This document shows, piece by piece, positions 25,743 through 63,054 of a stretch of DNA of 64,000 bases. The position numbers and the translations under genes are program-made. The notes below the pieces were generated by a model. That model did no database searches, was not told the origin of the DNA, and saw only the letters and a list, made by a program, of their open reading frames with translations. Numbering within the stretch: position 1 is the stretch's first letter; every line of letters begins with the position of its first letter. The DNA lies in the NCBI GenBank assembly GCA_000146465.1, contig CP001949.1; one strand, given 5' to 3'.

Positions 25743-26117
25743 TCACAGCTCTCGAATGTTCTTCGACTTGAATGGCGATCGAGGAAATGAGGAAAATAAA
25801 AGATCCATCTCGGTTTCATCCTCTTGGGATGCTCTGTTCATTTCTTGTGCCGGAGGCTTTGTCTTCTCTGTGATCTCTCTCAGCGCTGTGTATCTCTTCC
25901 TCTGCTTTACCTTGGTAGGTGTAAACTCCTTGATGTGTGGATTGTAGTTCTCCTTCTCAGGTAGGTTGTCAAACCCTGCACCATCTGGTCTTTCACATCT
26001 CATGTTAGGGATTCCTCCTATTGTCCAATAAGTCCATTTTGGAGGGAAGATTCCAAGACCTTGCAAAATAACAGCATTCAAAGCCCTAAGAAGAGTACAG
26101 AATTTATTGTTACACAT
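25743..26117 (-). CDS. 124-aa ORF immediately downstream of the multi-exon membrane gene; either a 4th exon (via the non-consensus 28-nt intron GTAACA...CTTCTTAG at 26086..26113) or a separate small gene
   Basis: Frame can be reached from exon 3 only through a non-consensus intron; it has its own ATG at 26117. Confidence 0.25.
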   Translation of the reverse strand: MCNNKFCTLLRALNAVILQGLGIFPPKWTYWTIGGIPNMRCERPDGAGFDNLPEKENYNPHIKEFTPTKVKQRKRYTALREITEKTKPPAQEMNRASQEDETEMDLLFSSFPRSPFKSKNIREL

Positions 26118-27087
26118 CCGGAATGCCCTTGTCCCTCTTTACCTTCAGTACATTCCGCTCTTTCCCTGCGGGGTAAAACAACTCCTTTAGCCCAGATCCG
26201 AAGTACCTGTAGTCCAAGACCGAGTAATACAGAAAAATCAGGTTTATAACTGCCTCGAAGTTATTCCTTATGATGAAGAGCCTAAAATTAAAAATGCTCA
26301 CTTACCTCCTCAGATGCCAATCCAGAGCGTCACTGTTCCTATGTCTCGAAACCTGGGATGTACAGTACGAAAGATTCAAGGCTGTTGCCATGATTAGAGA
26401 CATCCTTTGGCCCTCATTTTCTTCATTAGGCCTCATGAACATTAAGAAAAAGGTGATAACCTCGAGAATATGGTCAAGCACCATCAAGAAAGCCTCTAAA
26501 GAGTTTACAGTGTAGTATTTGATCCCCTCGATCTGAAGATATATCCCCTGGATGGCTGCTAGGATCATTAGAAACTTCGATGCATCGTACCGGGCCCTTG
26601 CTTTGTATGCAGCTTAAAATTATATGTGTCACTTACCTTTCAGCTTGCTGCTAACACCCCCCTGCTTAAAATAGTACCATTCAAACATGTCTCCATATTC
26701 CTTGCATACGAAGTACATCCTAATAAACTCTCCAACGCATAGTCCTAAATACAAAAGGGAAAAAGCCACAACTCCCAGGTTGTGATTGGTAAACTTGAAA
26801 ACGCTTTCCACAATCACAGATGCCTCCAGAGAAGCTATGAGAATGATAACCCAGTATGCCTTGCACTGCTCAAGGTTTTTTCTCGACATTGCATTTTCAA
26901 GATAGATAAACATGTAGACGTTTGTAACACATATGGACAGACACATCGATCGGATTATGACCATTTGCTTACCGATAATGTTTTTCCGGTAAAATCCAAT
27001 TCCGATGACTAATATCCTCAAAAGCAAGTACATAAACGAAACCTTCCTCCCTTTGTTCAACAGTTCGTCCTTCCCCAACAAGTCCAT
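26110..27087 (-). CDS. Multi-pass membrane protein encoded by at least 3 exons (27087..26637, 26612..26306, 26281..26110), tentatively TLC/TRAM-LAG1-like; a possible 4th exon is 25743..26085
   Basis: Three consecutive minus-strand track ORFs in different frames join exactly when two 24-nt introns (GTAAGTGACACATATAATTTTAAG, GTAAGTGAGCATTTTTAATTTTAG) are removed; phases match and the continuous frame is hydrophobic; the ATG at 27087 is preceded by GACCCATTGA. Confidence 0.55.
26282..26305 (-). other. Spliceosomal intron, 24 nt, GTAAGTGA...TAATTTTAG
   Basis: Removal joins exon frames (phase 2) without a stop. Confidence 0.65.
26613..26636 (-). other. Spliceosomal intron, 24 nt, GTAAGTGA...AATTTTAAG
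   Basis: Removal joins exon frames (phase 1) without a stop. Confidence 0.65.
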
Positions 27088-27266
27088 TCAATGGGTCTGT
27101 GCCATTTCAAAAAAAATATCATTTATCACAGGTTTAGATCCACTGATCTACTTAAATTATAAAATTTCAGAAGGCAATCTATCTCTAATTAGTTGGAATT
27201 CCCTGCTAATGCAATTCTGATAAATTAAATCATGCCTGTGTTATTGATCCGATCCGAGATAGCATC

Positions 27267-28151
27267 CTAGAACCCGTTCCTTGTGAAGACAATTTGGCCA
27301 TATGCTTTCTTCTGCACAGGTATAATGTCCCCTCTTGAGCTCATCAAAAGAATGGAATAGAATGTCCTTGCTCTTGTCCTTCTGCTTGTGCCAGCATACT
27401 CGTCGAAGTCTCCATTGCTCAGCAGGATGCTTGCCATGTCTTCGCTGGAAGTGCTGTTTGAAAAGTCCTCTCTACTCGAATGCCTAGACCAATTACGTGC
27501 TTTTTCTACAGAGTCAAAGGAAGACATCCCGGCATACAACATCCCAGTCCCCTGGATTGGAGGTCTTATCTTCTTAACTTCCCTGGTGATAAAGGCTTCT
27601 TCTTCAAACACCCGGGTTTCAGCCCTCTCTTCATGCTTGGATGTTCTTGAAGCTCCTGCTTTATTGATATTCAGTACTGTTGTGCTGTCCACTACATTCT
27701 AAAGACGCTTTCTGGATATATGTTCCGGCCCGTCCACAACTCCAAATGTTTCGCTGTAGCTAAACATTATACTATCCATACAATCGACCCCATCCAGTTC
27801 GGAGCTACAGACACTTGCCACATATCCTGTTTCAATCGAAAGCATGTTCTTCTTTTTTCTTTCCACCGTCCTTCTCCTCTTTTTTCTTCTATCTAGTATC
27901 CCAGCTAGCGATCTAATTTCAAGCAGCTGAATCCTAACTTTGGCTTTATAGATTCTTATCAGCATTTGAAGAAATACCGAGGCTCCTCTTAACGCATACA
28001 CCGGAAAGATGTCCACCACAGCCTTCACAACCCCTGGAATCCAGATCTTTTCCACAGCCTTTCTTCCAATTCGGACTTTCCTCCCCCTCTTCCCAAGTAT
28101 TCGGAGAAAGGTCAATGCTTCTTGATTCCTAAGGAGATTTTGGAAAGCCAT
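27267..28151 (-). pseudogene. Rad21/Scc1-type kleisin (cohesin subunit) reading frame interrupted by one in-frame TAG (plus strand 27699..27701)
   Basis: N-terminal kleisin motif (EKIW...VYALRGASVFLQMLIRIYKAKVRIQLL) and C-terminal winged-helix motif (TRARTFYSILLMSSRGDIIPVQKKAYGQIV) lie in the same frame on either side of the TAG; the track shows two ORFs, the second starting at a GTG. Confidence 0.55.
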
Positions 28152-28212
28152 AAATATTCATCTCATACACCATTTAATTATTTTAAGATATATACTAAAT
28201 AAAAAGCACTGC

Positions 28213-29079
28213 TTAACCCCCCTCCAGGCCTCTTCGACTCCTATGCTTGTTAACAACATCCACCAAGTCTCCCGGCTCAAGGGGCATCAAGAGAGTCTCT
28301 GTCACCCTTATCCCCAAAATACTCATATATTCGCTTTTGAATCCTTCGTCTACAACCAAAACAATAGGAACATCCTCGTCCTCGCTTCTTATTCGGCTCA
28401 CAACCTTGCTGCACTCAGGCGCATCCGCATATAATACAACTACATCATACTTCCATTTCATCACATTCTTCATGTCTGTACTTTCTTCTACTATTGTCAA
28501 AGAGTAATTGGGAATCTTTAGAGCACTGTATATCCACTCAGACCCAGGAACATCCTTCTTGACAAACAGCACATTTGTCTTGGAAGCAATCCTCATCCTC
28601 TCGTGATAAATGTATTTCTTTATCTCGTTGATGTCCTCGACAACAGTCTGAAGATACTTCGAAATACTCCGGATGGCATTCAGCACATGCGACTGGTAGA
28701 CTATGCCGCTTTCAATCTGCTTTGGATTCGAGCCTCCAGACACCCCGCACTCGCTCGGTGCTTTCTTCCTACGGATCTTGTCCAGAAGCTCCGGCCTTCC
28801 TCTTTGGAAATATTTGTTTCGGTATTCCCATTGTGCCCTCTCCCCATCCCTCCGTACCTTGTAAAAATCATATTTGTTGAGCTGTCTAACAAAGGAGCTC
28901 CAGTTCTTGTGTCTAAAATGCCTTTCGAGAACAAACTCAGAGAATCCCTGAATATCAGATATGACAAAGCTTCTTCCGTCGGGACTCCATGATATGTATG
29001 GATAATTCTCAGGCTCCTCCAACATCTGAAAAAGCTTCACTACAAACTCAGACCCCATGGTCAACCTCATGGACTCCAT
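28213..29079 (-). CDS. HSF-type DNA-binding domain fused to a C-terminal response-regulator receiver-like domain (Skn7-like transcription factor)
   Basis: HSF DBD (FV.KLFQMLE.PE....ISWSPDG.SFVI.D...F...VL...F.H.N..SFVRQLN.Y.F.KV); C-terminal YDVVVLYADAPE...VPIVLVVDEG...GIRVTETLLMP resembles a CheY-like receiver. Confidence 0.6.
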   Translation of the reverse strand: MESMRLTMGSEFVVKLFQMLEEPENYPYISWSPDGRSFVISDIQGFSEFVLERHFRHKNWSSFVRQLNKYDFYKVRRDGERAQWEYRNKYFQRGRPELLDKIRRKKAPSECGVSGGSNPKQIESGIVYQSHVLNAIRSISKYLQTVVEDINEIKKYIYHERMRIASKTNVLFVKKDVPGSEWIYSALKIPNYSLTIVEESTDMKNVMKWKYDVVVLYADAPECSKVVSRIRSEDEDVPIVLVVDEGFKSEYMSILGIRVTETLLMPLEPGDLVDVVNKHRSRRGLEGG

Positions 29080-29201
29080 CCGACCTAAGGCCTTAACTAA
29101 TCAATAATTCCCATATCAATTAAGCCATATTAAAAGATAATCCCCTTCCATATCCGGAAGCATCCAAAAAAGAATAAACATTTATTTCTACCCCAAACAC
29201 A

Positions 29202-29918
29202 TTATCCCCTACTTTTCTTGAAGTACAGCTTTCCGTTTCTTATATCAACATCGTTTCCTTTCTGTGGCCTGAGCCCTATTTTCAGTCTAAATATGGTGTT
29301 TCTCTTACTCAGCTGTTGTCTGTATCTTTTCTGAGCTCTTTGTTTTCTTCCGTCCCCATAGACAGAATTTATGTATCTTTGCTGATAATACAAAAGCAGC
29401 TCGCAAACCAGTGTATCCTCAGTTGCTAGGGGCCTGTTCTCAAGAACTGTTATCTCCTTGAGTAGTCCCATCATCTCGTCTATCTCCATCGAGATTCCAT
29501 CCACCTCTTTGCTATTCATAAACAGCATGTCTTCATACAGGTCAAACCCAAATATATGATATGGAAGAAGACACTCGTAAGCATGGTTGAGATTCATGAA
29601 TCTCCTCAGATCAGGCCTCCCAATCTGGAACAGATCCTTCTGCAGGAACCCAAGAACCTTCTGTCTCCGTGCCTGTGCCTGTTCATACAGATTGCCGTAC
29701 AAGTGTCCATATCCTCCCCCGTCAATCCCCCGTGTCTTTCGGTAAGGCCCACGAACTCCTTTTGTCCTTTCCATACTCTGGCCCTCAAGGGACTTCTTCA
29801 CTGGCGAGGACCCTTTGCTCTCCAATCCAACCAATTCCCCCTTTTCCAGGGCCCCGCCTCCATTCAACCCTCCCATTCCACAATCAGCCCCTTCAGGCTT
29901 ATCCGACGGCCTCTCCAT
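29202..29918 (-). CDS. Hypothetical protein (Gly-rich N-terminus)
   Basis: The track start at 29930 is a TTG; the ATG at 29918 is preceded by GGGCCTAAAA (the same motif as upstream of RPS4 and RPB4). Confidence 0.35.
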   Translation of the reverse strand: MERPSDKPEGADCGMGGLNGGGALEKGELVGLESKGSSPVKKSLEGQSMERTKGVRGPYRKTRGIDGGGYGHLYGNLYEQAQARRQKVLGFLQKDLFQIGRPDLRRFMNLNHAYECLLPYHIFGFDLYEDMLFMNSKEVDGISMEIDEMMGLLKEITVLENRPLATEDTLVCELLLYYQQRYINSVYGDGRKQRAQKRYRQQLSKRNTIFRLKIGLRPQKGNDVDIRNGKLYFKKSRG

Positions 29919-29972
29919 TTTTAGGCCCAAAAAATTTCAAGAATTTACACCAAATGGCTCATCCTCGGAAAC

Positions 29973-30242
29973 ATGTATCTCCACATGAAGCTAAGATGCG
30001 GCAAGATCTCAACAGGAAACACTGCAATGATGTGCGATAAATGCTCGGGAAAATGCTATGCATGCGGCCTGGACACCAGAGAGTCCGTGGAAAAGGTCTA
30101 CATTTGCACCCCGTGCTTCCATTCCACGTACAAAGACAGATGCATCGTTTGCAAGCTTAAGGACCCGAGAAACAATGCATACTATTGCAGGGAATGCAAG
30201 CTCCAGAAAAACCACGACAGATGCCCTGTCCTCGCCCAATAA
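29973..30242 (+). CDS. PHF5A: PHF5A/Rds3 (SF3b splicing factor, zinc-knot protein)
   Basis: Cys pattern C.KC.GKC..C...(C)...C..C......RC..C......AYYC.EC......D.CP matches PHF5A; the exact N-terminus is uncertain (ATG at 29973 or 29985). Confidence 0.75.
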   Translation: MYLHMKLRCGKISTGNTAMMCDKCSGKCYACGLDTRESVEKVYICTPCFHSTYKDRCIVCKLKDPRNNAYYCRECKLQKNHDRCPVLAQ

Positions 30243-30276
30243 ATCATAGACATGTTTAATAAAGTAGGTGTGTATC

Positions 30277-30750
30277 TCATCCCCCACCACTATTTGTTGG
30301 CCACTTGTTGGGACTGTTGTTTGAAACATTCTTCACATGAGGAAATAGTTGCTCCACGTCAATCTCGTGCCCACTAGAGAAGTATTTCTCAAGAGCCCTG
30401 TGGTCCTGCATCTTCACCTTGAAGTTTATTGCCGGGTCTTTCGCAAAGTCCGGAACAACAAAGTCTGGGTCCAAGATGGCATCATTTTCGTCTACTTGCG
30501 GTATCTTTGTCTTTGGCCTGTAAATATGCTGTGGGACCCTTCCTGTCGATCTGAGGAGTTGATAATCAATGGCTTGTTTGTAGAGATTCCCTCCGTTGAA
30601 CCTCTTGCCTGTCTCTGTCTCTTTTCCTCTCACTCCAAGAGAATCCAAATCTGCTTGGTGCAGAGGCATCATCTCAGGCTTGCTTATCTCCTTCTCTAGT
30701 AAGCTTTCCTGCCCTTTCTTGCCATACTCAGATTCATTTGCCTTCTCCAT
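30277..30750 (-). CDS. Hypothetical protein; may be the 3' part of a frameshifted gene with 30783..31385
   Basis: The track start at 30786 is a TTG; first ATG at 30750; abuts the previous ORF in the +1 frame. Confidence 0.25.
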   Translation of the reverse strand: MEKANESEYGKKGQESLLEKEISKPEMMPLHQADLDSLGVRGKETETGKRFNGGNLYKQAIDYQLLRSTGRVPQHIYRPKTKIPQVDENDAILDPDFVVPDFAKDPAINFKVKMQDHRALEKYFSSGHEIDVEQLFPHVKNVSNNSPNKWPTNSGGG

Positions 30751-30782
30751 ACATCTTTTCTTCAGCTGTTGCAAGGCTGCAT

Positions 30783-31385
30783 TCAATTTGGAATTTGCAT
30801 TAAGGTTCCTGATGCCCTTTGCTGCAGTTCAAGTAGTCTCCTTCCAATCCCATTTTCCAATTCTGCATCATTGCATTGTGCTTCCCCCATCTCTCTTTTC
30901 TTCAATAAGCTGGGAAAATCCCCGATTACAGAAGGCTTCTTGAGTCTTGTTCCCTTGTAGATCTCTCTAGAATCCATGTCTATTATCCGAGGACTTTCTC
31001 TCATGGAAATCTCCTTGTAGCCACCCTTGCATCCTTGGCTTACTTTCTTACAAGAAACCGAAGGATGTCCATTCATTCCATTCCTTTCACTCTCCTCAGA
31101 GGTCCTTTTGCCCAGGCCTCCATCCTTGCTCTTTATGACTGGAATGTGCCCTGGAATCAGGCTTTCCTGATCAAATGCACTTCCATCAAAGTCTCCATCA
31201 TACAAAAATTCCTCATTCTCCTTGTCCCTCTCATAACCATCTCTTCCCTTTCCCCCATTCGATATATTCTTCAAATCCTTCATCTCGTATCCACTCTCCA
31301 CATTCATTTTCTCACACATCACACGGTCCTTCACACCTGCAATTGCATTTTTCCATTCCTCAAGAAATTCCTTCAGAAACTCCAT
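30783..31385 (-). CDS. Hypothetical 200-aa protein (low complexity, Gly/Asp/Glu-rich)
   Basis: ATG at 31385; ends 31 bp downstream of the preceding gene's stop. Confidence 0.25.
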   Translation of the reverse strand: MEFLKEFLEEWKNAIAGVKDRVMCEKMNVESGYEMKDLKNISNGGKGRDGYERDKENEEFLYDGDFDGSAFDQESLIPGHIPVIKSKDGGLGKRTSEESERNGMNGHPSVSCKKVSQGCKGGYKEISMRESPRIIDMDSREIYKGTRLKKPSVIGDFPSLLKKREMGEAQCNDAELENGIGRRLLELQQRASGTLMQIPN

Positions 31386-31419
31386 AAGGGATTAAAAACC
31401 CTTGGTTACATACACACAC

Positions 31420-33468
31420 TCATACAGTCTTGTCCAAAAAATCAAAATTCATCATCCTCCATCCTGCTTCAAGCTTGCTTCCAACATCCACTCTGTTCCT
31501 GACTCTAGGCCAGTAACTTCCTCCTCGAGGATCAAAAAACTCAACCATCCTCACGAGCTCTCCATCAACCCCTCCGCCCACGCAATAGTACAAGATGTAA
31601 TTGTCTCCGTTGTCCTGGTCTTTCATTATCTTTTCTCTATAATACTCCTTCATCCTCCCTACACAGTCTAGGCACATCCCGCCAATGTTACACTCCTTGA
31701 TCCTTGCTCTCCTGTATGCATAGAACCCAGAATACTTGCTTTCCTCAGATATTTCCTTGTTCTCATAATACTTTATCTCCGACTCAATCAGTTCCGATCT
31801 CACATGCCTCCGGGAGTTGTAGAGAACAGACAGCGATATCTTTCCCAGCTTCCTGAATATTACAAATCTCTCAAACCACATCCATTCCTCAGACATAAAT
31901 CTCTTTGCAAGCTTGTCACTCATCTCCAAGGCCTTTTTCATGTCCTTTCTCTTCAGATACCTCAGATACCCAATTCCAACCTTGAAGTTCTCGGGATATC
32001 GAGACATGCATTCTTCGTATATTCCACTGGCATCTATCCCTCTTCTCTCTCCAAGCTCTGCATATAGAAGCCAGTGCTTATAATCAAACAGATCCTTTCC
32101 TAACTCCTCAAAAGCCCTTTCCAGGCTTATTTGAGACAGGATTACATATTTTCTTATTGTCCTCATCTTTCCAGGAATCACAGAATAGCTGCTGTGGAAG
32201 TCTCCTCCCATGTAATACATCTTCGATCTAGCAAGGATAAATGTTTTCTTCTCTCTCCCGTACTGTCTCATTCCGCTCCTTAGAATCTTCTCGGCCCTCC
32301 GGAAATATCCAATCTCCTTGCTCCCCACAAACAGCTTCCACCACTCCTTGGCCTTCATCAAATCAACAAAATACCTACGAGGCTCCATCACAAAAAATCT
32401 CTCAATGAACTCGGAGTCCAGAAAATACTCCTTTGCAACATTATAGCAGGAAATAAACGTCTCGTCGTCATGGAGCCCATGCTTGCTCATCGAGACAAAC
32501 AGAGACCAGAGGTCAGAAGGAAGAGCTGACATCGGCTCAGGTCTCTCCCCTTGCAGGTAGAGGAGAAGGGTATCTTTGGAGAGGATGGGGGACGGAAGCT
32601 CGACCCTCCGCTTTCCTCTTCGAAGAATCCGAAGAGTTCCTTCCAGTCCAAGTCTGAGAAGATCTTCAACCACCATCGAGTTGTCTCCATCTTCCACCAG
32701 ACAGCTCAGAAGATGCTCCGAGTAGATTCCTTTGTCCCTAAGGACTCTGTACAGAGACTCCACAAGCCCATGGTTGGGTTTTGTGCCAATAAACAGATCT
32801 ACAAGTCTCTCCTCATGAGTCTCAACCACACTTTCATATAGGAACATCTGTTTCTCCAAAATATCTTCCAGATTCTCGCTCATCATTTTTCGGAGACCAA
32901 AACTCCTGGGATGTCTTGAGACCCCAGCCCTCAGGATCTTGATGTCTCTGTCTTTTCGAAACAGATCTTCATAAAAGCCTTCATCTCCGTCTACAACCTC
33001 CAATGCCTCGTCAAGCATGTCGGATGCATAGTATCTACTAATAATCTCTCTCCACAGTCTCTCGTCCTTGATGTCTCGGCCCTCGAGCAATATCTTTGAA
33101 CCCTCGTTTCTCCCAACAAGTCTACTGAGTCTGATTCTCGCATCCACATTCAAACGGTTCTTCTTCAATAAGTTCCTTAGGACGTGGGTCTTCCATTCGT
33201 TATTTTCCTGGTCCTGCTCTCCATCCATCTCCACTTCCTCTATTCCTTTCCAAGAAGGAATGTGTCTGGAAGTGGCTTCCTCTATATCCATCTTTCCAAG
33301 AGCCTCCACCTCCTCTCTGGAAAGTATCCTTTGCTTTGGATCCTTTATTTTCCTCTTTCTTTTTTCTTCTATTGCTGTGTAGATCTCGTCCTCCTCTCCG
33401 TCATATCTAGATGCAGTGTTCTGTTCAAACAGACTCCTTATGTCAAAGAGCTTTCTTCCTTTTCCCAT
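31420..33468 (-). CDS. HAT/TPR-like helical-repeat protein, candidate RNA-processing factor (Utp6/Clf1/Rna14 type not resolved)
   Basis: Repeated W..Y...E...G helical-hairpin pattern; the track start at 33474 is a GTG; the ATG is at 33468. Confidence 0.4.
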   Translation of the reverse strand: MGKGRKLFDIRSLFEQNTASRYDGEEDEIYTAIEEKRKRKIKDPKQRILSREEVEALGKMDIEEATSRHIPSWKGIEEVEMDGEQDQENNEWKTHVLRNLLKKNRLNVDARIRLSRLVGRNEGSKILLEGRDIKDERLWREIISRYYASDMLDEALEVVDGDEGFYEDLFRKDRDIKILRAGVSRHPRSFGLRKMMSENLEDILEKQMFLYESVVETHEERLVDLFIGTKPNHGLVESLYRVLRDKGIYSEHLLSCLVEDGDNSMVVEDLLRLGLEGTLRILRRGKRRVELPSPILSKDTLLLYLQGERPEPMSALPSDLWSLFVSMSKHGLHDDETFISCYNVAKEYFLDSEFIERFFVMEPRRYFVDLMKAKEWWKLFVGSKEIGYFRRAEKILRSGMRQYGREKKTFILARSKMYYMGGDFHSSYSVIPGKMRTIRKYVILSQISLERAFEELGKDLFDYKHWLLYAELGERRGIDASGIYEECMSRYPENFKVGIGYLRYLKRKDMKKALEMSDKLAKRFMSEEWMWFERFVIFRKLGKISLSVLYNSRRHVRSELIESEIKYYENKEISEESKYSGFYAYRRARIKECNIGGMCLDCVGRMKEYYREKIMKDQDNGDNYILYYCVGGGVDGELVRMVEFFDPRGGSYWPRVRNRVDVGSKLEAGWRMMNFDFLDKTV

Positions 33469-51974: not shown

Positions 51975-54770
51975 ATGTCGGACATAGAGGCCTTTGTGGC
52001 TTTTTACGAGCATCTGAAGTCTCAAGGAAAGGGAGATTCCGAGCTCCGGAGCGAGGAGCTGGAGAGGGCCATGAGGGAGATGCTGAGGAGAGCAAAGATA
52101 ACGGACTTTAAGGAGTATGCACGAAGTTACAAGTACAAGAGGAGGGAGCTGAGTGGTTTTCAGGAAGTACTGGTGTGGGGAAAGAGGAATTCCATATGGA
52201 ATGGAATGGGAGACATGTTTAGAAGCAGTATGGAGCTTCTCGGGCATTCTGGACAGGTTGATAGAATATGCTTTGACCAAGGAAATAGATTCTTTATGTC
52301 TGGAGGCTCTGATGGAATGATCAAGCTCTGGGACATTTACTCAGGGCTTTTGGTATACAGCTTCATAGGCCACCGAAACCTTGTGAGCGACCTTTGTGTT
52401 AGTAGTGATGGGAAAGTCCTTGTTTCGTGTGATTCCCACGGATTACTGAGCATCTGGTCCTTGGAGAGGTTTGAAATGCTCCTCCAGCTTGAACTGGAAT
52501 GCGAGATTGTCTTTACCGAATTTTTTGACACAGACGACCTATCTACCTATAATCTGATTGTTGTTTTGTCGAAGGGTGTTATCAAGACATACAGGTTTGA
52601 TGAGAGAAGGATAGTGTCTGAGTCTGAAAACCTTTGTCTTCTTGACGAGTCCATCAAGGGCCTGTGCTTTACAGATGGGGGAAGGTTTCTTCTGTGTAGT
52701 GGATGGTGGCCATTTCTTGTTGTCTTCGACACCCAGAACTCCGATGGATGCATAGTTCTTGAGACAAATGGAATGCCGGTGAATACCATATGCGGATCGA
52801 AGAAGGGTCTTAAGATAGCAGCAGCGTGCGACTCTCAAATATTCCAATGGACATTCTTTGCAGAGGGAAATCCTGGAATGGGAAACTTCAAAAGGAGAAC
52901 AAAGGACACGTCGTTAGAGGGACACTGGAAAAGATCTATCACCAAGATTGACATTGGGGAGAACGAGTCGATCGAGAGGATATGCTATCTCCGGGACAAT
53001 TTTCTCGTTTGCATATGCACTGATTTGAAGATAAGGATATTTGCGGGATCTGAGCTTAGATGCATAATAGACATACCGGAAATGGGGATTGCATATCCAC
53101 ATCCTCTGGAGAACATATTTGCCCTCTGCGGTAGTAGCCTTCGAATATATAGCATGGACAAGCTGATCTACGAGGAGATGCTGAGCTTTGCAGCCAATGA
53201 TGGCCAGTTTTCGAATGATGGAGAGTTCTTTGTGTTTGGAGACGAAAGAGGAGTGGTAAGGGTACTTTCGATGAGTTTCCTACCAAAGCCACCGAAGGAG
53301 CAGTTTTTTGAATCCGACCTTGACCACCTTAACTCTACTGAGTGGAATGGAGTTGTTGAGTGCAGGAGAGAATCCACTTATGAGTCGGATAGAAAGAGGA
53401 ACGAAGATTGGTTCCAAGTGGAATATGCCATTACAAAGAAGTCCAACGACTGTGTAAAGGTTGAGGATCTGGGATCAAAGCACTTTGTGAAAGACTTTGT
53501 AGGTCTTGAAGCATTCCGAAAAAAGTACATGAACATTCCCTTGCCTGGGGAGACACAGTCTGTGGAGCAGACAATGATATCTGAGTATAGCAGCAGCATC
53601 CTAGAGGGAGACACATCCAGTGGGTTTTACGAGGAATCTACAGACATGACAGGAGATGAAGAAATATTGTTTGAAGACAAAGGGGCACCTGTAAGAAGAT
53701 CCCTTGTTATCAGTGATGAGTCCTCGGAGATGGTGCCTGTTTTGAGAAGAAACACCCGGGTCTCGGAGGATGTTGAGAACGATTTAAGTCCAACAGGAAT
53801 TGTAAGAAGGTTAAGGAGATTCAATAGAGACCAGGCTGTGGAGGATGAAGAAAACGGAATCCGCATTCTGTCGCTAGAGGGAGGGGACGGTATGGACAGG
53901 AGGGGTGCTGAGCATTGTGCAGGACCTCGTAGTAGTATTAACGACAGCGAAAGAAGTGAACTAGCAGAAAACAGTGATGACCGATATGTGATTGGATTGT
54001 CTGGAGGGATAGGGCATGGAGAGCAGGAGCTAAGGCAGTATGTTCAATCGTGGCTGTCGTCTCCAAGTATGGTACCTCAGCCGGGAGATGTTGTTTACCT
54101 AAACTCCGAAGGCCTGAGAGAATTTCAAATGTTTGATGGGAGAAAGAAGTTTAAGGGGCAAGAAATATGCTCTGGATACTACGAAGTGAGAAGTCTTGAG
54201 GCAGTCAGGTACAGCCCACCATTTCTTAAGGTGGGGCTGGGCCTTAGAGACGAGAGCTTTTCGATAAGATACTACAGGTATCCTGGATCATCTCCTGTGC
54301 TCTTGTTAAGAGAACAGATGAATGCTGGGGCAGGGGATTTTATAAGTTTTGTGTCAAATGGGATAATATCTCGAGGAAGGGTGTCTGGAGTTCGAGGAAT
54401 CCATCTTGTAGTTGATTCTGGAGGGACTTCTGTCCTGGTTGAGAGGCTGGACATGTTAATTCCAAGGGCATTATTTCCTGGGGATATGAAGACCGAGATG
54501 TTAAAAGTACTCAGGCAAAGGAGAATGCACAGAGGACTTTACGTAACCCTGAGAAGAGAGTCAAATCCGTCTTACTACGAGAATGCAACTTCTACTGTCA
54601 ACCTAGGGATTATTGAAGAAAAGATCCTCCACGACTTATATCGGACAATAGGTGGACTGGAGTTTGATCTTGACATGGCAGTTAGTAACTCATTATATTT
54701 GGGGCCAGTTCTTCATGAGCATTGTCAGCAGGCTGTGGAAGGGGTCCGAACGATTATAAGAAGGATTTGA
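51975..54770 (+). CDS. Large WD40-repeat protein (931 aa), family unresolved
   Basis: N-terminal WD40 blades (GHSGQV...SGGSDGMIKLWD...); long C-terminal region without a recognised domain; the ATG is preceded by TTAGCCCTTGGA. Confidence 0.5.
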   Translation: MSDIEAFVAFYEHLKSQGKGDSELRSEELERAMREMLRRAKITDFKEYARSYKYKRRELSGFQEVLVWGKRNSIWNGMGDMFRSSMELLGHSGQVDRICFDQGNRFFMSGGSDGMIKLWDIYSGLLVYSFIGHRNLVSDLCVSSDGKVLVSCDSHGLLSIWSLERFEMLLQLELECEIVFTEFFDTDDLSTYNLIVVLSKGVIKTYRFDERRIVSESENLCLLDESIKGLCFTDGGRFLLCSGWWPFLVVFDTQNSDGCIVLETNGMPVNTICGSKKGLKIAAACDSQIFQWTFFAEGNPGMGNFKRRTKDTSLEGHWKRSITKIDIGENESIERICYLRDNFLVCICTDLKIRIFAGSELRCIIDIPEMGIAYPHPLENIFALCGSSLRIYSMDKLIYEEMLSFAANDGQFSNDGEFFVFGDERGVVRVLSMSFLPKPPKEQFFESDLDHLNSTEWNGVVECRRESTYESDRKRNEDWFQVEYAITKKSNDCVKVEDLGSKHFVKDFVGLEAFRKKYMNIPLPGETQSVEQTMISEYSSSILEGDTSSGFYEESTDMTGDEEILFEDKGAPVRRSLVISDESSEMVPVLRRNTRVSEDVENDLSPTGIVRRLRRFNRDQAVEDEENGIRILSLEGGDGMDRRGAEHCAGPRSSINDSERSELAENSDDRYVIGLSGGIGHGEQELRQYVQSWLSSPSMVPQPGDVVYLNSEGLREFQMFDGRKKFKGQEICSGYYEVRSLEAVRYSPPFLKVGLGLRDESFSIRYYRYPGSSPVLLLREQMNAGAGDFISFVSNGIISRGRVSGVRGIHLVVDSGGTSVLVERLDMLIPRALFPGDMKTEMLKVLRQRRMHRGLYVTLRRESNPSYYENATSTVNLGIIEEKILHDLYRTIGGLEFDLDMAVSNSLYLGPVLHEHCQQAVEGVRTIIRRI

Positions 54771-54808
54771 GGGTTGCGGACATGTAATCAAGGGCTGGGG
54801 TTACCCTG

Positions 54809-55525
54809 ATGTACTACGACGTGAATATTAGTCTGGATTATCCAAAGCAAGATATCGAGGAGCTGGAGAAAAGTGAATACGAAGGGTTTTGTGTGAATAA
54901 GACTATGAGGCCCAAGGACCTCGAAAGACTTTCCCATGGATCTCTTGAGTTTCCTGGGGCAAAGCGTTACTACAACCGTGCGGAGATTGTATTTGGAGAG
55001 GGAGAGCAGATTGGATACGACTTTAGAAAAGCAATGAGATATGATCTGTTTGTTGTGAAGCTGAGCGGGACAGAGGGAATGGATAAGATAATAAAACATC
55101 AGCCAGATATGATTACATTTGACTATGGTGGAAAAGTCCTTCCATTTAAGCCCGGACTTGTCAAGACGGCAATCAGGGAAGGCATATTCTTTGAGATACC
55201 GATGAGAGAGGGCTTGAGAGGAGGGTCTTTAACCATCATGTGGATCCGGAATGTACGGAGACTGCTGTTTATTACAAATGGGAAGAACATTGTAGTTAGC
55301 AGTGGGGCCCAATGCTCCATGGAGATTAAGAAAGTCAGAGATGTTGTTAAGATGCTTGAGATGTTTGGACTTGGGGAGAAAAGAGCACTGGAAGTGATGC
55401 TCAACTCGGAGAGGCTTTTAAAGAGGTGTGCAATGAAAAGGCATTGCTACAGAGACTCGATTGTGCACAGTGTGGATGAAGGGGCCCTAAAAAGGGACTT
55501 TGTACTGTCTCTGTACAAAAATTGA
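54809..55525 (+). CDS. RNase P/MRP protein subunit Rpp30 (Rpp1, PHP/TIM-barrel)
   Basis: Aligns with Rpp30 end to end: MYYDVNISL (MAVFADLDL), GF.VN, MITFDY, GIFFEI, GKNIVVSSGAQ..MEI....DVVKMLEMFGL.EKRALEVM (GKNVIISSAAERPLEIRGPYDVANLGLLFGLSESDAKAAV); the ATG is preceded by TTACCCTG. Confidence 0.7.
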   Translation: MYYDVNISLDYPKQDIEELEKSEYEGFCVNKTMRPKDLERLSHGSLEFPGAKRYYNRAEIVFGEGEQIGYDFRKAMRYDLFVVKLSGTEGMDKIIKHQPDMITFDYGGKVLPFKPGLVKTAIREGIFFEIPMREGLRGGSLTIMWIRNVRRLLFITNGKNIVVSSGAQCSMEIKKVRDVVKMLEMFGLGEKRALEVMLNSERLLKRCAMKRHCYRDSIVHSVDEGALKRDFVLSLYKN

Positions 55526-55589
55526 TTTTTTACAAAATAAAGTCTACGACTAATAAGACTTGTATTTTTGATTACCTTTCCAAGGCTCG

Positions 55590-56243
55590 ATGTTCTTTGA
55601 TGTAAATGTAAGTAACAGATGCCCAAGAGGGGATCTGGATGTTTTAAAGGAGCTTGGATGGGATGGAATCTGCATAAACACTGTTGTTGGCTTGGACAAC
55701 CTGGAAGGATGGAGCAGTCCCCTTCTTGATGTGTGGAAGGACGAGAAGGCCTATGAGAGGATAGAGGTAAGATACAAGGATAATGAGAAGTGGAGTGAAG
55801 TTAGAAAGATGGTGAATCCTGATGTGCTTTCGGTGAGAATAGAAGGGGTTGAAGACTTTAAGAAAGCTCTCGAGGTTTCTCCAGACGTGATTACATTTGA
55901 TTATTCCAGGAGCTTCTGTCTCGGAAAGGACGAAGTTTTTGAAGCTGTGAAGAGAAATATATTTCTTGAGATTCCATTGGTGTGTGGGATGTATGGCCAG
56001 AGAAACAAAGTTGTATGGATGAGAAATGCCAGAAAACTTGTGGAGATCACGGGGGGAGTGAATGTTGTGGTTGGGAGCGGGGCGTCATGTTGTACAGAGA
56101 TGAGAAGTTCCCATGACATTATAAAGATATTGGGAGGACTTGGAACGAGTGGAGACTGTGGAAGGAAGATACTGCAGAACTCTGGGAGGCTGATCAGGTC
56201 CTGCAGAATAAGAAAAGGATGTGTTATGAAGGAAGAGATATGA
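55590..56243 (+). CDS. Divergent Rpp30-like paralogue, tandem to 54809..55525
   Basis: Shares MFFDVNVS, VITFDY, NIFLEIP, GVNVVVGSGASC.TEMRS..DIIKILGGLG with its neighbour. Confidence 0.55.
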   Translation: MFFDVNVSNRCPRGDLDVLKELGWDGICINTVVGLDNLEGWSSPLLDVWKDEKAYERIEVRYKDNEKWSEVRKMVNPDVLSVRIEGVEDFKKALEVSPDVITFDYSRSFCLGKDEVFEAVKRNIFLEIPLVCGMYGQRNKVVWMRNARKLVEITGGVNVVVGSGASCCTEMRSSHDIIKILGGLGTSGDCGRKILQNSGRLIRSCRIRKGCVMKEEI

Positions 56244-56327
56244 TTGGTTCCTTGAAGATGAGATTCTGAAACATCTCTAGTTCTGTGACTACTGAGATAA
56301 ATAGAATTCTGAATCCAAACCAAAGGC

Positions 56328-57674
56328 ATGGGAGCAAGAAAAAACAGGATGAGAGGACGAGGTAGAATTCAAGGGGCTGGGAGAAGTATTGTTATTGAGA
56401 GAAGTGAGGTTAAGAAGGAAGAGAAGGCGGAAGGGAAGTTCAATGTCGATTTCCAGGAGCTTAACGAAGAACTATCTGGCATCGAATTAAAAGAGGAGAA
56501 TTCAAAGTGCTCTGATGTTGATGAGATGGTGTGTGAGAGAGTCTGCAAAGACGACAAAGTTGAGGAAGTACCTGAGGTATCCGAGATTAATAGGGAAAAT
56601 ACAGTGGATGAAGAGGTGGAGGCTGAGAAGAAGGAAGAGAATATCGAAAACAGAAAGGAAGAAGGAGAAGATGCTGTAAAAGCATCGCAAGCCCTCTATC
56701 CAGCAACACCCAGTGTATTGACCACTGTTATACCTCAGACACCAATGAGGAGGGTACTTCATGAGGAAGGAAGCCATCTTTTTGTTAAGGAGGAAAGTAT
56801 GGCTCTTCCTGGGAAGGTGATTATCAATAGGTATCCGGGACATTTGTTTATTCATATAGACCAGGTCGAGAGGTTCATGACATCCAGGAAGGAGGTGGAG
56901 AGTGTATCTATTAAGATTGAATCGAAGGGGATCTTCTATGAGACAAAGAAATATCCAGTGCAGCCGGACATAGGAATCAACGAGATGCTGCAAGTCCCCA
57001 TCAACAAGGCCGAGAGCAATGGAACACCTCTGAGATTTATACTTCTCCTGTACCACAGGTCTGGAAATATAGTAAAGTCGTGTGAAACTGTGCTTGTGGT
57101 TGACGGAAGTAGAATCCGCTCAATACATAACAATCTTCTCGAAAGTAGATTGGCATGGGACAACTATGTGTCGAGGAATCTATTTAAAAGCATTCGAAGC
57201 TTTTTTACAAGTGGAGCACCTGATGCATGGAGCCTGAAGATTTACTTGTCGTTTGTGTCGGACGATGAGCTTAGGTTGATTCCTGCGCCTCTTCCTCAGG
57301 ACCTTAAGTCCCTCAGCAAGTGGCTGGTGGTGAAGAAGTTTTCTTATAACATATGGTTTAGAGGATTTGTGAATGTCCGGGGAGATGTTGAAAAGGCATG
57401 TACCAACCTATGGAAGAGAAGATATGTTCGATGCTATGGATACATGATCTTTATATTTAACGAGCATTCGAGAAGCCTTGTTGGGACAATAAACCTCGTG
57501 GATGCAAGCTTTGATCCAAGCACGAGTAACAAGGTATATTTAGAGAACTTTCTTCGGATTAATGTTGGGGAGAAGGTGGTTGAGTTGCATTTTGACACAA
57601 AGGACAAATATAATACATGTAGGAGCGCACTTACCATGATGCTTCCACGAACACTGTTTCACAAGAAGGGGTGA
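56328..57674 (+). CDS. Protein with an acidic N-terminal half and a C-terminal PH-like domain
   Basis: C-terminal block LVVKKFSYNIWFRGFVNVRG...WKRRYVRCYGYMIFIFNE...INLVDASF...LHFDTKDKYNTCRSALTMM fits the PH-domain pattern. Confidence 0.4.
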   Translation: MGARKNRMRGRGRIQGAGRSIVIERSEVKKEEKAEGKFNVDFQELNEELSGIELKEENSKCSDVDEMVCERVCKDDKVEEVPEVSEINRENTVDEEVEAEKKEENIENRKEEGEDAVKASQALYPATPSVLTTVIPQTPMRRVLHEEGSHLFVKEESMALPGKVIINRYPGHLFIHIDQVERFMTSRKEVESVSIKIESKGIFYETKKYPVQPDIGINEMLQVPINKAESNGTPLRFILLLYHRSGNIVKSCETVLVVDGSRIRSIHNNLLESRLAWDNYVSRNLFKSIRSFFTSGAPDAWSLKIYLSFVSDDELRLIPAPLPQDLKSLSKWLVVKKFSYNIWFRGFVNVRGDVEKACTNLWKRRYVRCYGYMIFIFNEHSRSLVGTINLVDASFDPSTSNKVYLENFLRINVGEKVVELHFDTKDKYNTCRSALTMMLPRTLFHKKG

Positions 57675-57806
57675 TCTGGCAGACGATGTGTTTCCTGAAA
57701 CCTATCTTATTAAAGAATTGAATACGGCCTTTCTCTATGTTCTGATGGAGGGAAGTTTTCCCGCCAAGCCTAAGGATTTCAAGAAAATCCAGGATCCTGG
57801 GAGTTT

Positions 57807-58112
57807 ATGCGGCCTGTTTTGAACGAGACAACGAATGCTACCAAAAGACTGGAGACAAAGAGTAAGGAAGGGGAAAGTGACAAGGGAAGGGTGCTCCACT
57901 TCCTGAAGGGTGTCTACGCAACGACCAGGGACTATTCGTTGAAGTATGACCTGAAGAAATGTATGGAGATAATTGAAGGGAAAGAGAACCAAGAGGTCAT
58001 CGACCTTAAGAATGCGTTGTCTGAAGCTCTTATAGAGAACGAGACGCTGTTTGCAGAGAAATGCGAGCTTGCAGTTACTCTGGAATGTATGAAAGCAGAA
58101 AGAAAGGAGTGA
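57807..58112 (+). CDS. Small hypothetical protein (101 aa)
   Basis: ATG ORF; upstream CAGGATCCTGGGAG. Confidence 0.3.
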   Translation: MRPVLNETTNATKRLETKSKEGESDKGRVLHFLKGVYATTRDYSLKYDLKKCMEIIEGKENQEVIDLKNALSEALIENETLFAEKCELAVTLECMKAERKE

Positions 58113-58196
58113 TCACTGGACTCTGATATACATTAAAGGACTTATTTACTATTTGGTATTGAGAGATGGATTTTTGGCGGGACACCCCTCGGCTGA

Positions 58197-58472
58197 ATGG
58201 AGTTGCGATATAGATTGTAAGTGGAAGCAACTAATTTTAGGGTTTTTGGCAGAAAGGGTGTTCTGATCGAAGACCGAGCTCTGAAGGAGTTTGTGAGCGG
58301 GCTTATCCGGGGCTTTGGGGGCCTTGATTTGCTGAGCAGAGTTAGTGTAAGATGTGATGGAGGAGTGATCAATATCTCGGCGGACAAAGAGGCTTCTAGC
58401 ATTGTGCATGGATCTCTATTTCTCTGCGGAGAGTATAAGTCTGTTGGATGTAGATTTGAGCGAATCGATTAA
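58197..58472 (+). CDS. Small two-exon gene (exons 58197..58216 and 58241..58472), 83 aa, probable ribosomal protein eL38 with a short N-terminal extension
   Basis: A 20-nt first exon (ATGGAGTTGCGATATAGATT) followed by the consensus 24-nt intron GTAAGTGGAAGCAACTAATTTTAG joins in phase to the track ORF, whose apparent start is a GTG inside the intron; VSVRC...ADKEASSIVHGSL parallels eL38 VKFKVRC...DKEKAEKLKQSL. Confidence 0.45.
58217..58240 (+). other. Spliceosomal intron, 24 nt
   Basis: GTAAGTGG...TAATTTTAG. Confidence 0.6.
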
Positions 58473-58529
58473 ATGGTTTATCAAGTGTCATTACTATAAA
58501 TTATTCCAAATGATTTGTTTAAAAAACAG

Positions 58530-59804: not shown

Positions 59805-59867
59805 AAACATATTATAGATAAAATCTGTTTAATCTATTTCTTCTTTGAACGATCTCCAAGCCCTCGA

Positions 59868-60758: not shown

Positions 60759-60820
60759 GCAAGGAAGCCCCTGGAGATTGTAGTGAATAAAAATGGATTA
60801 GGAGATGGGCTGTAAACAAA

Positions 60821-62986: not shown

Positions 62987-63054
62987 ATAAGTCGGTGGCT
63001 ATGTTCTTCTTTCCAGGACCCGGGATACACAAATTCTGATAGGAAGGATCCCTG

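What the first reader, a model, noticed from the sequence alone, without database searches (positions are those of the whole stretch)
28213..29079. HSF DNA-binding domain fused to a receiver-like domain (Skn7-type) in a highly reduced genome
The N-terminus is a clear HSF-type winged-helix domain. The C-terminus shows the (beta-alpha)5 receiver pattern (YDVVVLYADAPE...VPIVLVVDEG...GIRVTETLLMP) with partly non-canonical residues at the phospho-acceptor pocket. A Skn7-like factor implies either a surviving His-Asp phosphorelay (a hybrid kinase and an HPt protein must then exist elsewhere) or a phosphorylation-independent degenerate receiver.
Basis: partly seen in the sequence, partly recalled or inferred. 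Interest (0 to 1): 0.5.

Follow-up and report, generated by a model that had tools for sequence, protein, structure and literature searches.

The report
Skn7-type factor with dead receiver domain
This Encephalitozoon intestinalis gene encodes a Skn7/Prr1-type transcription factor whose signal-receiving domain keeps its fold but has lost the residues needed for phosphorylation; the Skn7 link was already published, so only the dead-pocket detail seems new.

Summary
Window 28213-29079 (-) is a real 288-aa ORF, the E. intestinalis gene annotated 'heat shock transcription factor'. It has three parts:
- an HSF-type DNA-binding domain (Pfam E=4.5e-31), closest to the Chaetomium Skn7 structure;
- a heptad-patterned helix of about 44 residues;
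- a C-terminal (beta-alpha)5 domain.

The C-terminal domain fails Pfam's receiver threshold on its own (14 bits against 30.2). It is nevertheless a true receiver homologue. A profile built only from Encephalitozoon/Ordospora sequences hits solved receivers at E=2e-10 over their full length. Two AlphaFold models match receivers at TM 0.72-0.78.

The phosphorylation pocket is gone: the acceptor Asp is Tyr217, Thr is Val243, Lys is Met265, and the acidic pair is Lys175-Asp176. In the wider alignment, nearly all microsporidian orthologues also lack the Asp (93% Ser), whereas nearly all the fungal Skn7/Prr1 proteins keep it. The domain is still under purifying selection (dN/dS about 0.1).

Published surveys find no histidine kinases in microsporidia.

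The Skn7 assignment and the lack of Sln1 were published in 2019 (PMC6531884). The pocket degeneration appears unreported. Interest is modest.

The parts
28213..29079 (-). Complete ORF, 288 aa plus TAA stop: the E. intestinalis Skn7/Prr1-type factor, annotated 'heat shock transcription factor'. An alternative annotated start is Met4 at 29068-29070.
28765..29046 (-). HSF-type winged-helix DNA-binding domain (aa 12-105). The recognition helix SSFVRQLNKY is invariant in all 25 aligned orthologues.
   Evidence: Pfam PF00447 E=4.5e-31; 5d5w 4e-24; Foldseek to CtSkn7 5d5x/5d5w at 47-49% identity, TMt 0.91; invariant columns
28717..28764 (-). Variable, low-confidence linker (aa 106-121)
   Evidence: pLDDT <50 for residues 111-121; dN/dS 0.07-0.52, the least constrained segment
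28585..28716 (-). Predicted coiled-coil helix (aa 122-165) with a heptad a/d register of I,Q,I,L,I,I,I / G,V,I,V,I,E. Presumed oligomerisation element.
   Evidence: AF2 helix 119-165; heptad analysis, 77% hydrophobic at a/d; dN/dS 0.02-0.06
28225..28584 (-). Pseudo-receiver domain (aa 166-285): (beta-alpha)5 CheY-like fold, homologous to response-regulator receivers, lacking the phosphorylation residues
   Evidence: constraint pN 0.10-0.16 against pS 0.59-0.75
28552..28557 (-). Lys175-Asp176 at the position of the metal-binding acidic pair (fungal Skn7: Asp-Asp)
28429..28431 (-). Tyr217 codon (TAT) at the position of the phospho-acceptor Asp (Asp in 98% of the 54 fungal Skn7/Prr1 compared)
   Evidence: MAFFT, HMMER to 5uic and hhalign to Prr1 all agree
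28351..28353 (-). Val243 codon at the position of the conserved receiver Thr/Ser
28282..28287 (-). Met265-Pro266 at the position of the conserved receiver Lys-Pro (Lys lost, cis-Pro kept)

Best explanation
The gene encodes the E. intestinalis orthologue of fungal Skn7/Prr1. It is a compact transcription factor with three parts: an HSF-type DNA-binding domain, a coiled coil, and a C-terminal receiver that has become a pseudo-receiver.

Shown: the receiver fold and hydrophobic core are retained and are under purifying selection. The phospho-acceptor Asp, the Thr, the Lys and one of the two metal-binding acidic residues have been replaced (Y217, V243, M265, K175). The domain therefore cannot accept a phosphoryl group the way a response regulator does.

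From the literature: microsporidia lack histidine kinases and Sln1, and no HPt protein was found in this species.

Inferred: the protein binds HSE/SSRE-like GAA repeats through its invariant recognition helix, as a coiled-coil oligomer. It uses the pseudo-receiver as a constitutive structural or protein-interaction module. This would correspond to the Asp-independent mode by which yeast Skn7 acts in oxidative stress. In a lineage that lacks canonical HSF it may contribute to chaperone and stress gene control.
For: Identity and architecture:
- DBD, Skn7 the best match.
- coiled coil.
- receiver homology and fold, obtained without any canonical receiver in the query alignment.

Orthology:
- full-length homologues (>90% coverage) in Astathelohania, Hamiltosporidium, Nematocida and Dictyocoela carry PF00447 plus PF00072 and are named Prr1/SKN7.
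- the microsporidia-only profile ranks named microsporidia first and then only fungal Skn7/Prr1.

Dead pocket:
- fungi have EDD/D/T/KP almost invariantly; Encephalitozoon/Ordospora have no acidic triad, then Y (or H), V, and M(A)P.
- D219 of 'YADAPE' is not conserved even among Encephalitozoon species, so it is not a shifted acceptor.

Still functional: REC dN/dS is about 0.09-0.12 and pN is far below pS. The domain is retained in a 2.2-Mb genome and across the phylum.

No relay:
- PMC4965123 and PMC6324907: no HKs in microsporidia.
- PMC6531884: microsporidia lack Sln1.
- PMC4558063: E. cuniculi plus E. intestinalis have 0 HPt and no hybrid HK.
- PMC2078597: E. cuniculi lacks MAPK cascades and most stress kinases.

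Precedent for Asp-independent Skn7 function: PMC3871606.
Against: No experiment shows DNA binding, oligomer state or targets.

In N. ceranae the orthologue's transcript is not induced by heat shock. That neither supports nor excludes a role in the response.

I could not scan the whole E. intestinalis genome for HK or HPt genes. One census counted a single orphan 'HK'-domain protein among E. cuniculi plus E. intestinalis.

HSE-like triplets are not enriched in the window (2 found, 1.7 expected).

dS is saturated (about 1 or more), so the dN/dS values are rough.

The full-length AF2 model used an alignment that included canonical receivers. The second model did not.
Confidence: 0.85

Rival explanations
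1. A working Skn7 response regulator. The receiver is phosphorylated through a surviving His-Asp phosphorelay (hybrid kinase to HPt to this protein), perhaps on a non-canonical acidic residue such as D244 or D219.
For: The receiver fold is intact and constrained. Asp244 sits next to the pocket and is invariant in the Encephalitozoon/Ordospora clade. One census lists a single orphan HK-domain protein in the two Encephalitozoon genomes.
Against: The acceptor Asp, Thr and Lys are all replaced. D219 is not conserved among Encephalitozoon species. The same census found no HPt and no hybrid HK. Dedicated HK surveys report zero HKs in microsporidia, and the 2019 paper reports no Sln1. To my knowledge there is no precedent for phosphotransfer to the residue after the Thr position.
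Confidence: 0.02
2. A receiver rewired to eukaryotic kinases. The former acceptor position (Ser in about 93% of the other microsporidian orthologues compared, Tyr in Encephalitozoon) is itself phosphorylated by a Ser/Thr or Tyr kinase and switches the domain, replacing the lost phosphorelay.
For: Ser is strikingly conserved at this exact position across the phylum. The neighbouring E-D-N and K-P-Y residues, which would surround a phosphoryl group, are retained in the non-Encephalitozoon lineages. Yeast Skn7's oxidative-stress function depends on Ser/Thr phosphorylation.
Against: In the Encephalitozoon/Ordospora clade the Lys and the acidic residues are also lost, and one member has His instead of Tyr. 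That argues against a conserved phospho-switch here. Gly or Cys occupy the site in a few lineages. There are no phosphoproteomic data. A small Ser may simply be the least disruptive replacement.
Confidence: 0.08
3. A canonical heat shock factor (Hsf1 orthologue), as the database annotation says, with an unrelated lineage-specific C-terminus.
For: The gene is annotated 'heat shock transcription factor'. Only PF00447 is precomputed for the Encephalitozoon proteins. The HSF DBD match is strong.
Against: The DBD scores about 20 bits higher to CtSkn7 than to any HSF. The C-terminus is homologous to receivers. Orthologues grade continuously into Skn7/Prr1. The protein has no room for HSF activation domains. 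PMC6531884 concludes that microsporidia lack canonical HSF.
Confidence: 0.02
4. A vestigial C-terminal domain with no function, decaying after loss of the phosphorelay. Only the DBD and the coiled coil matter.
For: The pocket is progressively degraded: Asp lost phylum-wide, then Lys and the acidic residues lost in Encephalitozoon/Ordospora. REC evolves roughly twice as fast as the DBD.
Against: REC pN is 0.10-0.16 against pS 0.59-0.75. No truncations or frameshifts appear in more than 60 orthologues. Clade-specific motifs are highly conserved: YA, VDEGF, LLMP. The domain is kept in one of the smallest eukaryotic genomes, at 2.2 Mb.
Confidence: 0.03

Closest known systems
Fungal Skn7 / Prr1 (S. 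cerevisiae Skn7, S. pombe Prr1 = P0097, Chaetomium thermophilum Skn7 DBD structures 5d5w/5d5x)
   Same: Same order of domains: HSF-type DBD, coiled coil, C-terminal receiver. The DBD is 47-49% identical to CtSkn7 and shares the FVRQLNKYDF recognition helix. The receiver aligns to Prr1 residues 367-481. After the microsporidia, the profile's next-best hits are Skn7/Prr1 proteins.
   Different: It is about half the size (288 aa against 400-600), with no extra N- or C-terminal regions. The phospho-acceptor Asp, the Thr, the Lys and one acidic residue are replaced. No Sln1-Ypd1 relay has been reported in the lineage.
Nosema ceranae NCER_101594 and the other microsporidian 'Skn7' homologues described by McNamara-Bordewick et al. 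2019 (PMC6531884)
   Same: Same gene family. Table S1 of the paper lists Encephalitozoon entries, including an E. intestinalis accession. The E. romaleae accession XP_009265010.1 is the orthologue found here (P0134). The paper already states that the protein is Skn7-like with a receiver domain, that microsporidia lack canonical HSF, and that they lack Sln1.
   Different: The main text of the paper has no occurrence of 'aspartate' or of words beginning 'phosphoryl'. Compared with most other microsporidia (EDN / S / K-P), the Encephalitozoon/Ordospora proteins are more degenerate (Y or H at the acceptor, Lys to Met or Ala, acidic triad lost) and fall below Pfam's receiver threshold.
Pseudo-receivers and atypical response regulators (plant pseudo-response regulators of the TOC1/PRR type; bacterial FrzS, PDB 2gkg/2nt3). 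The family descriptions rest on my own knowledge.
   Same: CheY-like fold retained without a phosphorylatable Asp, presumably acting by protein-protein interaction. FrzS appears among the profile's PDB hits.
   Different: No evolutionary link beyond the receiver superfamily, and different partner domains. Here the pseudo-receiver arose inside the Skn7 lineage, in a phylum reported to lack histidine kinases.
Canonical heat shock factors (HSF1/2/4, yeast Hsf1)
   Same: Same DBD fold and recognition helix: E=6e-18 to 5e-16 to human HSF1/2/4 and TMt about 0.9. The protein probably recognises GAA-type repeats.
   Different: No HSF activation domain or HR-C region, and a receiver at the C-terminus. 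The DBD is closer to Skn7. Microsporidia are reported to lack canonical HSF.

Membership tests
Skn7/Prr1 transcription factors | N-terminal HSF-type winged-helix DBD of the Skn7 subtype | tested here: met
   PF00447 E=4.5e-31. Best PDB sequence and fold hits are C. thermophilum Skn7 (88.7 bits, against 68.4 or less for HSFs; 47-49% identity).
Skn7/Prr1 transcription factors | Coiled-coil segment between the DBD and the receiver | tested here: met
   AF2 helix 119-165; heptad a/d positions 77% hydrophobic; strongly constrained. The oligomeric state was not tested.
Skn7/Prr1 transcription factors | C-terminal response-regulator receiver domain (fold and homology) | tested here: met
   Clade-only profile to PDB receivers, E=2e-10; hhalign to the Prr1 receiver, 87.5%; AF2 plus Foldseek, TM 0.72-0.78.
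Skn7/Prr1 transcription factors | Orthology: closest relatives outside the lineage are Skn7/Prr1 | tested here: met
   Profile search: named microsporidia first, then Basidiobolus, Schizosaccharomyces Prr1, Gonapodya and others, all with PF00447 plus PF00072. No formal phylogeny was made.
Skn7/Prr1 transcription factors | Phospho-acceptor Asp (S. cerevisiae D427) with the acidic pair, Thr and Lys | tested here: not met
   K175/D176, Y217, V243 and M265 occupy these positions in three independent alignments. Fungal Skn7/Prr1 have EDD/D/T/K in 96-100% of sequences at the Asp, Thr and Lys positions.
Skn7/Prr1 transcription factors | Upstream Sln1-type hybrid histidine kinase and Ypd1-type HPt protein in the same genome | not testable with these tools
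   Only 64 kb of the genome was available. No receiver or HSF paralogue is in the window, and none of the ten flanking ORFs scanned is a phosphorelay part. Literature: no HKs in microsporidia, no Sln1, 0 HPt and no hybrid HK in E. cuniculi plus E. intestinalis, but 1 orphan 'HK' domain counted.
Response-regulator receiver domain (Pfam PF00072) | Score above Pfam's gathering threshold | tested here: not met
   14.1-14.5 bits against 30.2 for this protein. 8 of 10 clade members hit at E<1 and the best E-value is 6.6e-4. Precomputed Pfam lists only PF00447 for the Encephalitozoon/Ordospora clade.
Response-regulator receiver domain (Pfam PF00072) | (beta-alpha)5 CheY-like fold | tested here: met
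Canonical heat shock factor (Hsf1-type) | HSF DBD plus HR-A/B trimerisation region plus activation or regulatory domains; no receiver | tested here: not met
   The DBD and one coiled coil are present. The rest of the protein is a receiver homologue, which leaves no space for activation domains. The DBD is nearer to Skn7. The literature says microsporidia lack canonical HSF.
Pseudo-receiver (phosphorylation-incompetent receiver) | Receiver fold without a phosphorylatable Asp, conserved by selection | tested here: met
   Fold. No Asp. Purifying selection. Lack of phosphorylation itself was not tested experimentally.

The most novel reading that the evidence does not exclude
After microsporidia lost their histidine kinases, the Skn7 receiver was not simply inactivated but re-purposed. 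In about 93% of the non-Encephalitozoon microsporidian orthologues compared, Ser sits exactly at the old acceptor position. It is surrounded by retained E-D-N and K-P-Y pocket residues. This Ser (Tyr in Encephalitozoon) may be a phospho-site for a eukaryotic protein kinase, or the pocket may bind a ligand. Either would make this a two-component receiver rewired into Ser/Thr/Tyr-kinase signalling.
Probability: 0.1. Interest if true: 0.65.

Novelty: new variant of a known kind. Interest (0 to 1): 0.3.

Why it matters
Microsporidia have lost canonical HSF, MAPK cascades and histidine kinases, yet they still mount a heat-shock response (PMC6531884, PMC2078597). This small Skn7-type protein is one of only two HSF-domain proteins left in these genomes, so it is a prime candidate regulator of that response.

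The receiver is structurally kept but chemically dead, and the acceptor Asp is missing in nearly all microsporidian orthologues compared. This gives a natural example of an orphaned response regulator evolving into a pseudo-receiver. It also offers a natural separation-of-function version of Skn7, with only Asp-independent activity possible.

The practical consequences are modest:
- The Encephalitozoon genes would be better annotated as Skn7/Prr1-like with a pseudo-receiver than as 'heat shock transcription factor'.
- Nobody should look for a phosphorelay upstream of this protein.

Tried and rejected
- **Single-sequence Pfam and PDB searches of the C-terminus.** These gave only sub-threshold receiver hits (E=0.04-0.4). 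On their own they are insufficient, so I replaced them with clade-profile, hhalign and fold tests.
- **A shifted acceptor at D219 ('YADAPE').** Rejected, because sister species have S, N, N, R or T at that position.
- **A second HSF-type or receiver-type gene in the window.** None found by tblastn.
- **HSE triplets (TTCnnGAAnnTTC) in the window.** Two were found against 1.7 expected, so this is uninformative.
- **Phosphorelay genes.** Only the ten ORFs flanking the gene were scanned with Pfam (PHF5, cNMP-binding, Rad21/Rec8, weak TPR and GLTSCR1 hits). A whole-genome scan was not possible. The protein-search tools cannot be restricted to one organism, so I ran no further search on an HK or HPt query.
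- **dN/dS.** It was computed, but dS is saturated (about 1-3, and undefined in two cells), so only the qualitative conclusion (pN far below pS) is used.
- **Papers on Skn7 receiver genetics** (He et al. 2009, PMC2681607; Fassler and West 2011, PMC3067409). Neither is held in the library. The D427-independent oxidative role is cited second-hand from PMC3871606.
- **Kinome papers** (PMC2078597, PMC4280135). Neither mentions histidine kinases at all.
Full report
**1. What is there**

Window 28213-29079 (minus strand) is a 288-codon ORF, from ATG at 29077-29079 to TAA at 28213-28215. It is 100% identical to the Encephalitozoon intestinalis protein annotated 'heat shock transcription factor'. UTX45816.1 is 285 aa and starts at Met4. 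ADM12027.1 of strain ATCC 50506 is 288 aa. The window is therefore microsporidian DNA, and the 'highly reduced genome' is the 2.2-Mb E. intestinalis genome (size from PMC6531884 Table S1).

**2. N-terminal domain**

Residues 12-105 match Pfam HSF_DNA-bind end to end at E=4.5e-31.

In the PDB the best sequence hit is 5d5w at E=4e-24 and 88.7 bits. That is about 20 bits above the best true HSF, HSF2, at 68.4 bits. Foldseek on the AlphaFold model identifies 5d5x/5d5w as Chaetomium thermophilum Skn7 bound to SSRE/HSE DNA, at 47-49% identity, TMt 0.91-0.92 and rmsd 1.3-1.8 Å.

The recognition helix S61-S-F-V-R-Q-L-N-K-Y70 is invariant across all 25 aligned orthologues. It has the KYDF form seen in CtSkn7, not the MYGF form of HSF2. 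DNA binding to GAA-type repeats is an inference from this conservation.

**3. Middle**

Residues 106-121 are a poorly conserved, low-confidence linker.

Residues 119-165 are modelled as one long helix. It has a clear heptad register, with a = I,Q,I,L,I,I,I and d = G,V,I,V,I,E, which is 77% hydrophobic. It is the most constrained part of the protein after the DBD, at dN/dS 0.02-0.06. This fits the coiled coil that follows the DBD in Skn7 (domain scheme in PMC6531884).

**4. C-terminal domain: is it a receiver?**

Alone, the sequence does not pass. PF00072 scores E=0.04-0.055 and 14 bits against a gathering score of 30.2. CheY-type PDB hits come in at E of about 0.3. Only PF00447 is precomputed for every Encephalitozoon/Ordospora orthologue.

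Four stronger tests settle it.

- (a) More distant microsporidian proteins align to the query over more than 90% of its length, carry PF00447 plus PF00072, and are named Prr1 or SKN7 (Astathelohania, Hamiltosporidium, Nematocida, Dictyocoela).
- (b) A profile built only from the ten degenerate Encephalitozoon/Ordospora C-termini (A2) gives 121 PDB hits at E<=1. All 60 listed carry receiver-type names (response regulators, CheY, histidine-kinase receiver domains) apart from one labelled a de novo protein. The best is 5uic at E=2e-10, covering profile positions 3-114 of 120.
- (c) hhalign of A2 against S. pombe Prr1 aligns it to the Prr1 receiver (367-481) with 87.5% probability and E=3.5e-6.
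- (d) AlphaFold on A2 alone, with no canonical receiver in the alignment, gives a confident (beta-alpha)5 model (pLDDT 86.9, pTM 0.83). That model matches RR468, PhoB, KdpE, PmrA and many other receivers at TM 0.72-0.78. The full-length model gives the same result.

**5. The pocket**

I used canonical fungal Skn7 as the reference. Three independent alignments place the same residues at the signature positions: MAFFT, HMMER against 5uic and hhalign against Prr1.

| Signature position | Canonical residue | This protein |
|---|---|---|
| Acidic pair | Asp-Asp | Lys175-Asp176 |
| Phospho-acceptor | Asp | Tyr217 |
| Conserved hydroxyl residue | Thr | Val243 |
| Conserved Lys | Lys | Met265 |
| cis-Pro | Pro | Pro266 (kept) |

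I then aligned 132 homologues and summarised conservation in three subsets.

| Group | Acidic triad | Acceptor | Thr position | Lys-Pro |
|---|---|---|---|---|
| 54 fungal Skn7/Prr1 | E-D-D (0.81 / 1.00 / 0.96) | D (0.98) | T (1.00) | K-P (1.00 / 1.00) |
| 56 microsporidian proteins outside Encephalitozoon/Ordospora | E-D-N (0.96 / 0.88 / 0.86) | S (0.93; a few Gly, Cys in P0070) | mostly V, I, A or G | K-P-Y (1.00 / 0.96 / 0.87) |
| 10 Encephalitozoon/Ordospora proteins | lost | Y (0.9; one His) | V (I in one) | M(A)-P |

The named species in the second group are ten Nematocida species, Hamiltosporidium, Astathelohania, Conglomerata, Gurleya, Binucleata, Edhazardia, two Dictyocoela, Pancytospora, Spraguea, Enteropsectra and two Nosema. 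The third group has acquired clade-specific conserved motifs: L-Y-A, V-D-E-G-F and L-L-M-P.

The acceptor Asp is therefore missing in nearly all microsporidian orthologues compared. The clade that includes this window has gone further and lost the Lys and the acidic residues as well. One unnamed metagenomic sequence in the microsporidian block (P0052) has Asp at the acceptor. It is the only exception seen.

**6. Is the dead receiver still doing something?**

I made codon alignments of the E. intestinalis, E. hellem, E. cuniculi and E. romaleae-like genes (loci). The receiver shows pN of 0.10-0.16 against pS of 0.59-0.75, giving dN/dS of about 0.09-0.12. The other segments give 0.02-0.12 (DBD), 0.02-0.06 (coiled coil) and 0.07-0.52 (linker).

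dS is saturated, so the ratios are approximate, but purifying selection is clear. More than 60 orthologues keep the domain intact, and it is retained in one of the smallest eukaryotic genomes. Together these argue against a vestigial domain.

**7. Is there a phosphorelay?**

I could not search the genome, since only 64 kb is available. The window has no other HSF or receiver gene. The ten flanking ORFs I scanned give PHF5-like, cNMP-binding and Rad21/Rec8 matches, weak TPR and GLTSCR1 hits, and four ORFs with no match.

The literature reports the following.

- Histidine kinases are widespread in fungi except in Pneumocystis and microsporidia (PMC4965123).
- Enterocytozoon bieneusi has 0 HKs, against 5 in Rozella (PMC6324907).
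- Microsporidia lack Sln1 (PMC6531884).
- E. cuniculi lacks MAPK cascades and nearly all stress kinases (PMC2078597).
- A census whose two microsporidians were exactly E. cuniculi and E. intestinalis ATCC 50506 found 0 HPt proteins, no hybrid HK, 2 RRs and one orphan 'HK'-domain protein (PMC4558063).

That last count is an unresolved caveat. Without an HPt protein and without an acceptor Asp, it cannot make this protein a phosphorelay target.

**8. How it most likely works**

Shown: the protein is a Skn7-type DBD plus coiled coil plus receiver fold, with a pocket that cannot perform Asp phosphorylation, and all three parts are under selection.

Established for yeast, cited second-hand from PMC3871606: Skn7's osmotic and cell-wall role needs D427 phosphorylation by Sln1. 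Its oxidative-stress role does not, and depends on Ser/Thr phosphorylation and on Yap1.

Inferred: the microsporidian protein retains only an Asp-independent mode. It binds HSE/SSRE-like sites as a coiled-coil oligomer, and the pseudo-receiver serves as a constitutive structural or partner-binding module. The protein has no room for an activation domain.

Microsporidia lack canonical HSF and Msn2/4 yet still induce chaperone genes on heat shock (PMC6531884). This protein and the Hms2-like paralogue are therefore the obvious candidate regulators. That role remains untested. The N. ceranae orthologue's mRNA is not itself heat-induced.

**9. Comparison with what is known, and novelty**

The gene is annotated. 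The Skn7 assignment of the family is published, with an E. intestinalis accession in Table S1. The E. romaleae accession there, XP_009265010.1, is the one I recovered as P0134. The observation that microsporidia lack Sln1 is in the same paper (PMC6531884).

In the searchable literature I did not find any statement that the receiver lacks its phospho-acceptor across microsporidia, or that the Encephalitozoon/Ordospora version is degenerate enough to escape Pfam. I therefore rate it a new variant of a known kind, an orphaned Skn7 with a pseudo-receiver. It is not a new system, and interest is modest.

**10. Verdict**

The phosphorelay branch is effectively excluded for this protein.

Noticed in passing
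window 27267-28151 (-), stop codon at 27699-27701: The gene immediately downstream is a Rad21/Rec8-type kleisin. Its N-terminal domain hit lies in ORF 27699-28151 and its C-terminal domain hit (E=1.1e-5) in ORF 27267-27692. It is one gene of 299-301 aa in E. hellem and E. cuniculi. Here it is interrupted by an in-frame TAG where the orthologues have Lys or Arg, and similarity continues in the same frame after the stop. The same 150-aa product is called on 4 contigs, including NCBI CP075165.1 and an independent read-set assembly (ERR13302946), so it is not a one-off sequencing error. The E. romaleae-like contig L003 also has this gene split. Possible explanations are a pseudogene, a split gene or stop-codon read-through.
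   Followed up: partly
window 29068-29079 (-): The start codon is ambiguous. One E. intestinalis annotation starts at Met1 (288 aa, ADM12027.1) and another at Met4 (285 aa, UTX45816.1). Sister species differ in their N-terminal 3-4 residues.
   Followed up: no
window about 28834-28848 (-), aa 78-82 (DBD wing loop): E. intestinalis has a shorter wing loop (RRDGE-RAQWEY) than E. cuniculi, E. hellem and E. romaleae (for example RRDGERTGCIEAMWEY). It is also 7 residues shorter than C. thermophilum Skn7. The consequence for DNA binding or oligomer contacts is unknown.
   Followed up: no
related proteins P0052; P0022-P0025, P0090, P0107: Exceptions at the acceptor position. One unnamed metagenomic sequence in the microsporidian block (P0052, 322 aa) has Asp there (EDT/D/A/KP). 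Among fungi, Yarrowia-type sequences (P0025 is named Yarrowia sp. B02 SKN7; P0022-P0024 are unnamed) and Schizosaccharomyces cryophilus Prr1 have Glu, which is phosphomimetic-like, and the partial Blyttiomyces sequence has Asn. Acceptor loss or mimicry in Skn7 is therefore not confined to microsporidia.
   Followed up: no
literature, PMC4558063 supplement: A 2015 census of exactly E. cuniculi plus E. intestinalis ATCC 50506 counted one orphan 'HK'-domain protein and two RRs, with no HPt. This sits awkwardly with dedicated surveys that report no histidine kinases in microsporidia. The identity of that 'HK' was not traced and could be another GHKL-type ATPase.
   Followed up: partly
window-wide, e.g. 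26001-32000 against 52001-64000: GC skew and AT skew follow gene orientation. They are strongly negative where genes lie on the minus strand (26-32 kb, skew about -0.2 to -0.3) and positive where genes lie on the plus strand (52-64 kb, +0.18 to +0.36). The coding strand is therefore purine-rich.
   Followed up: no
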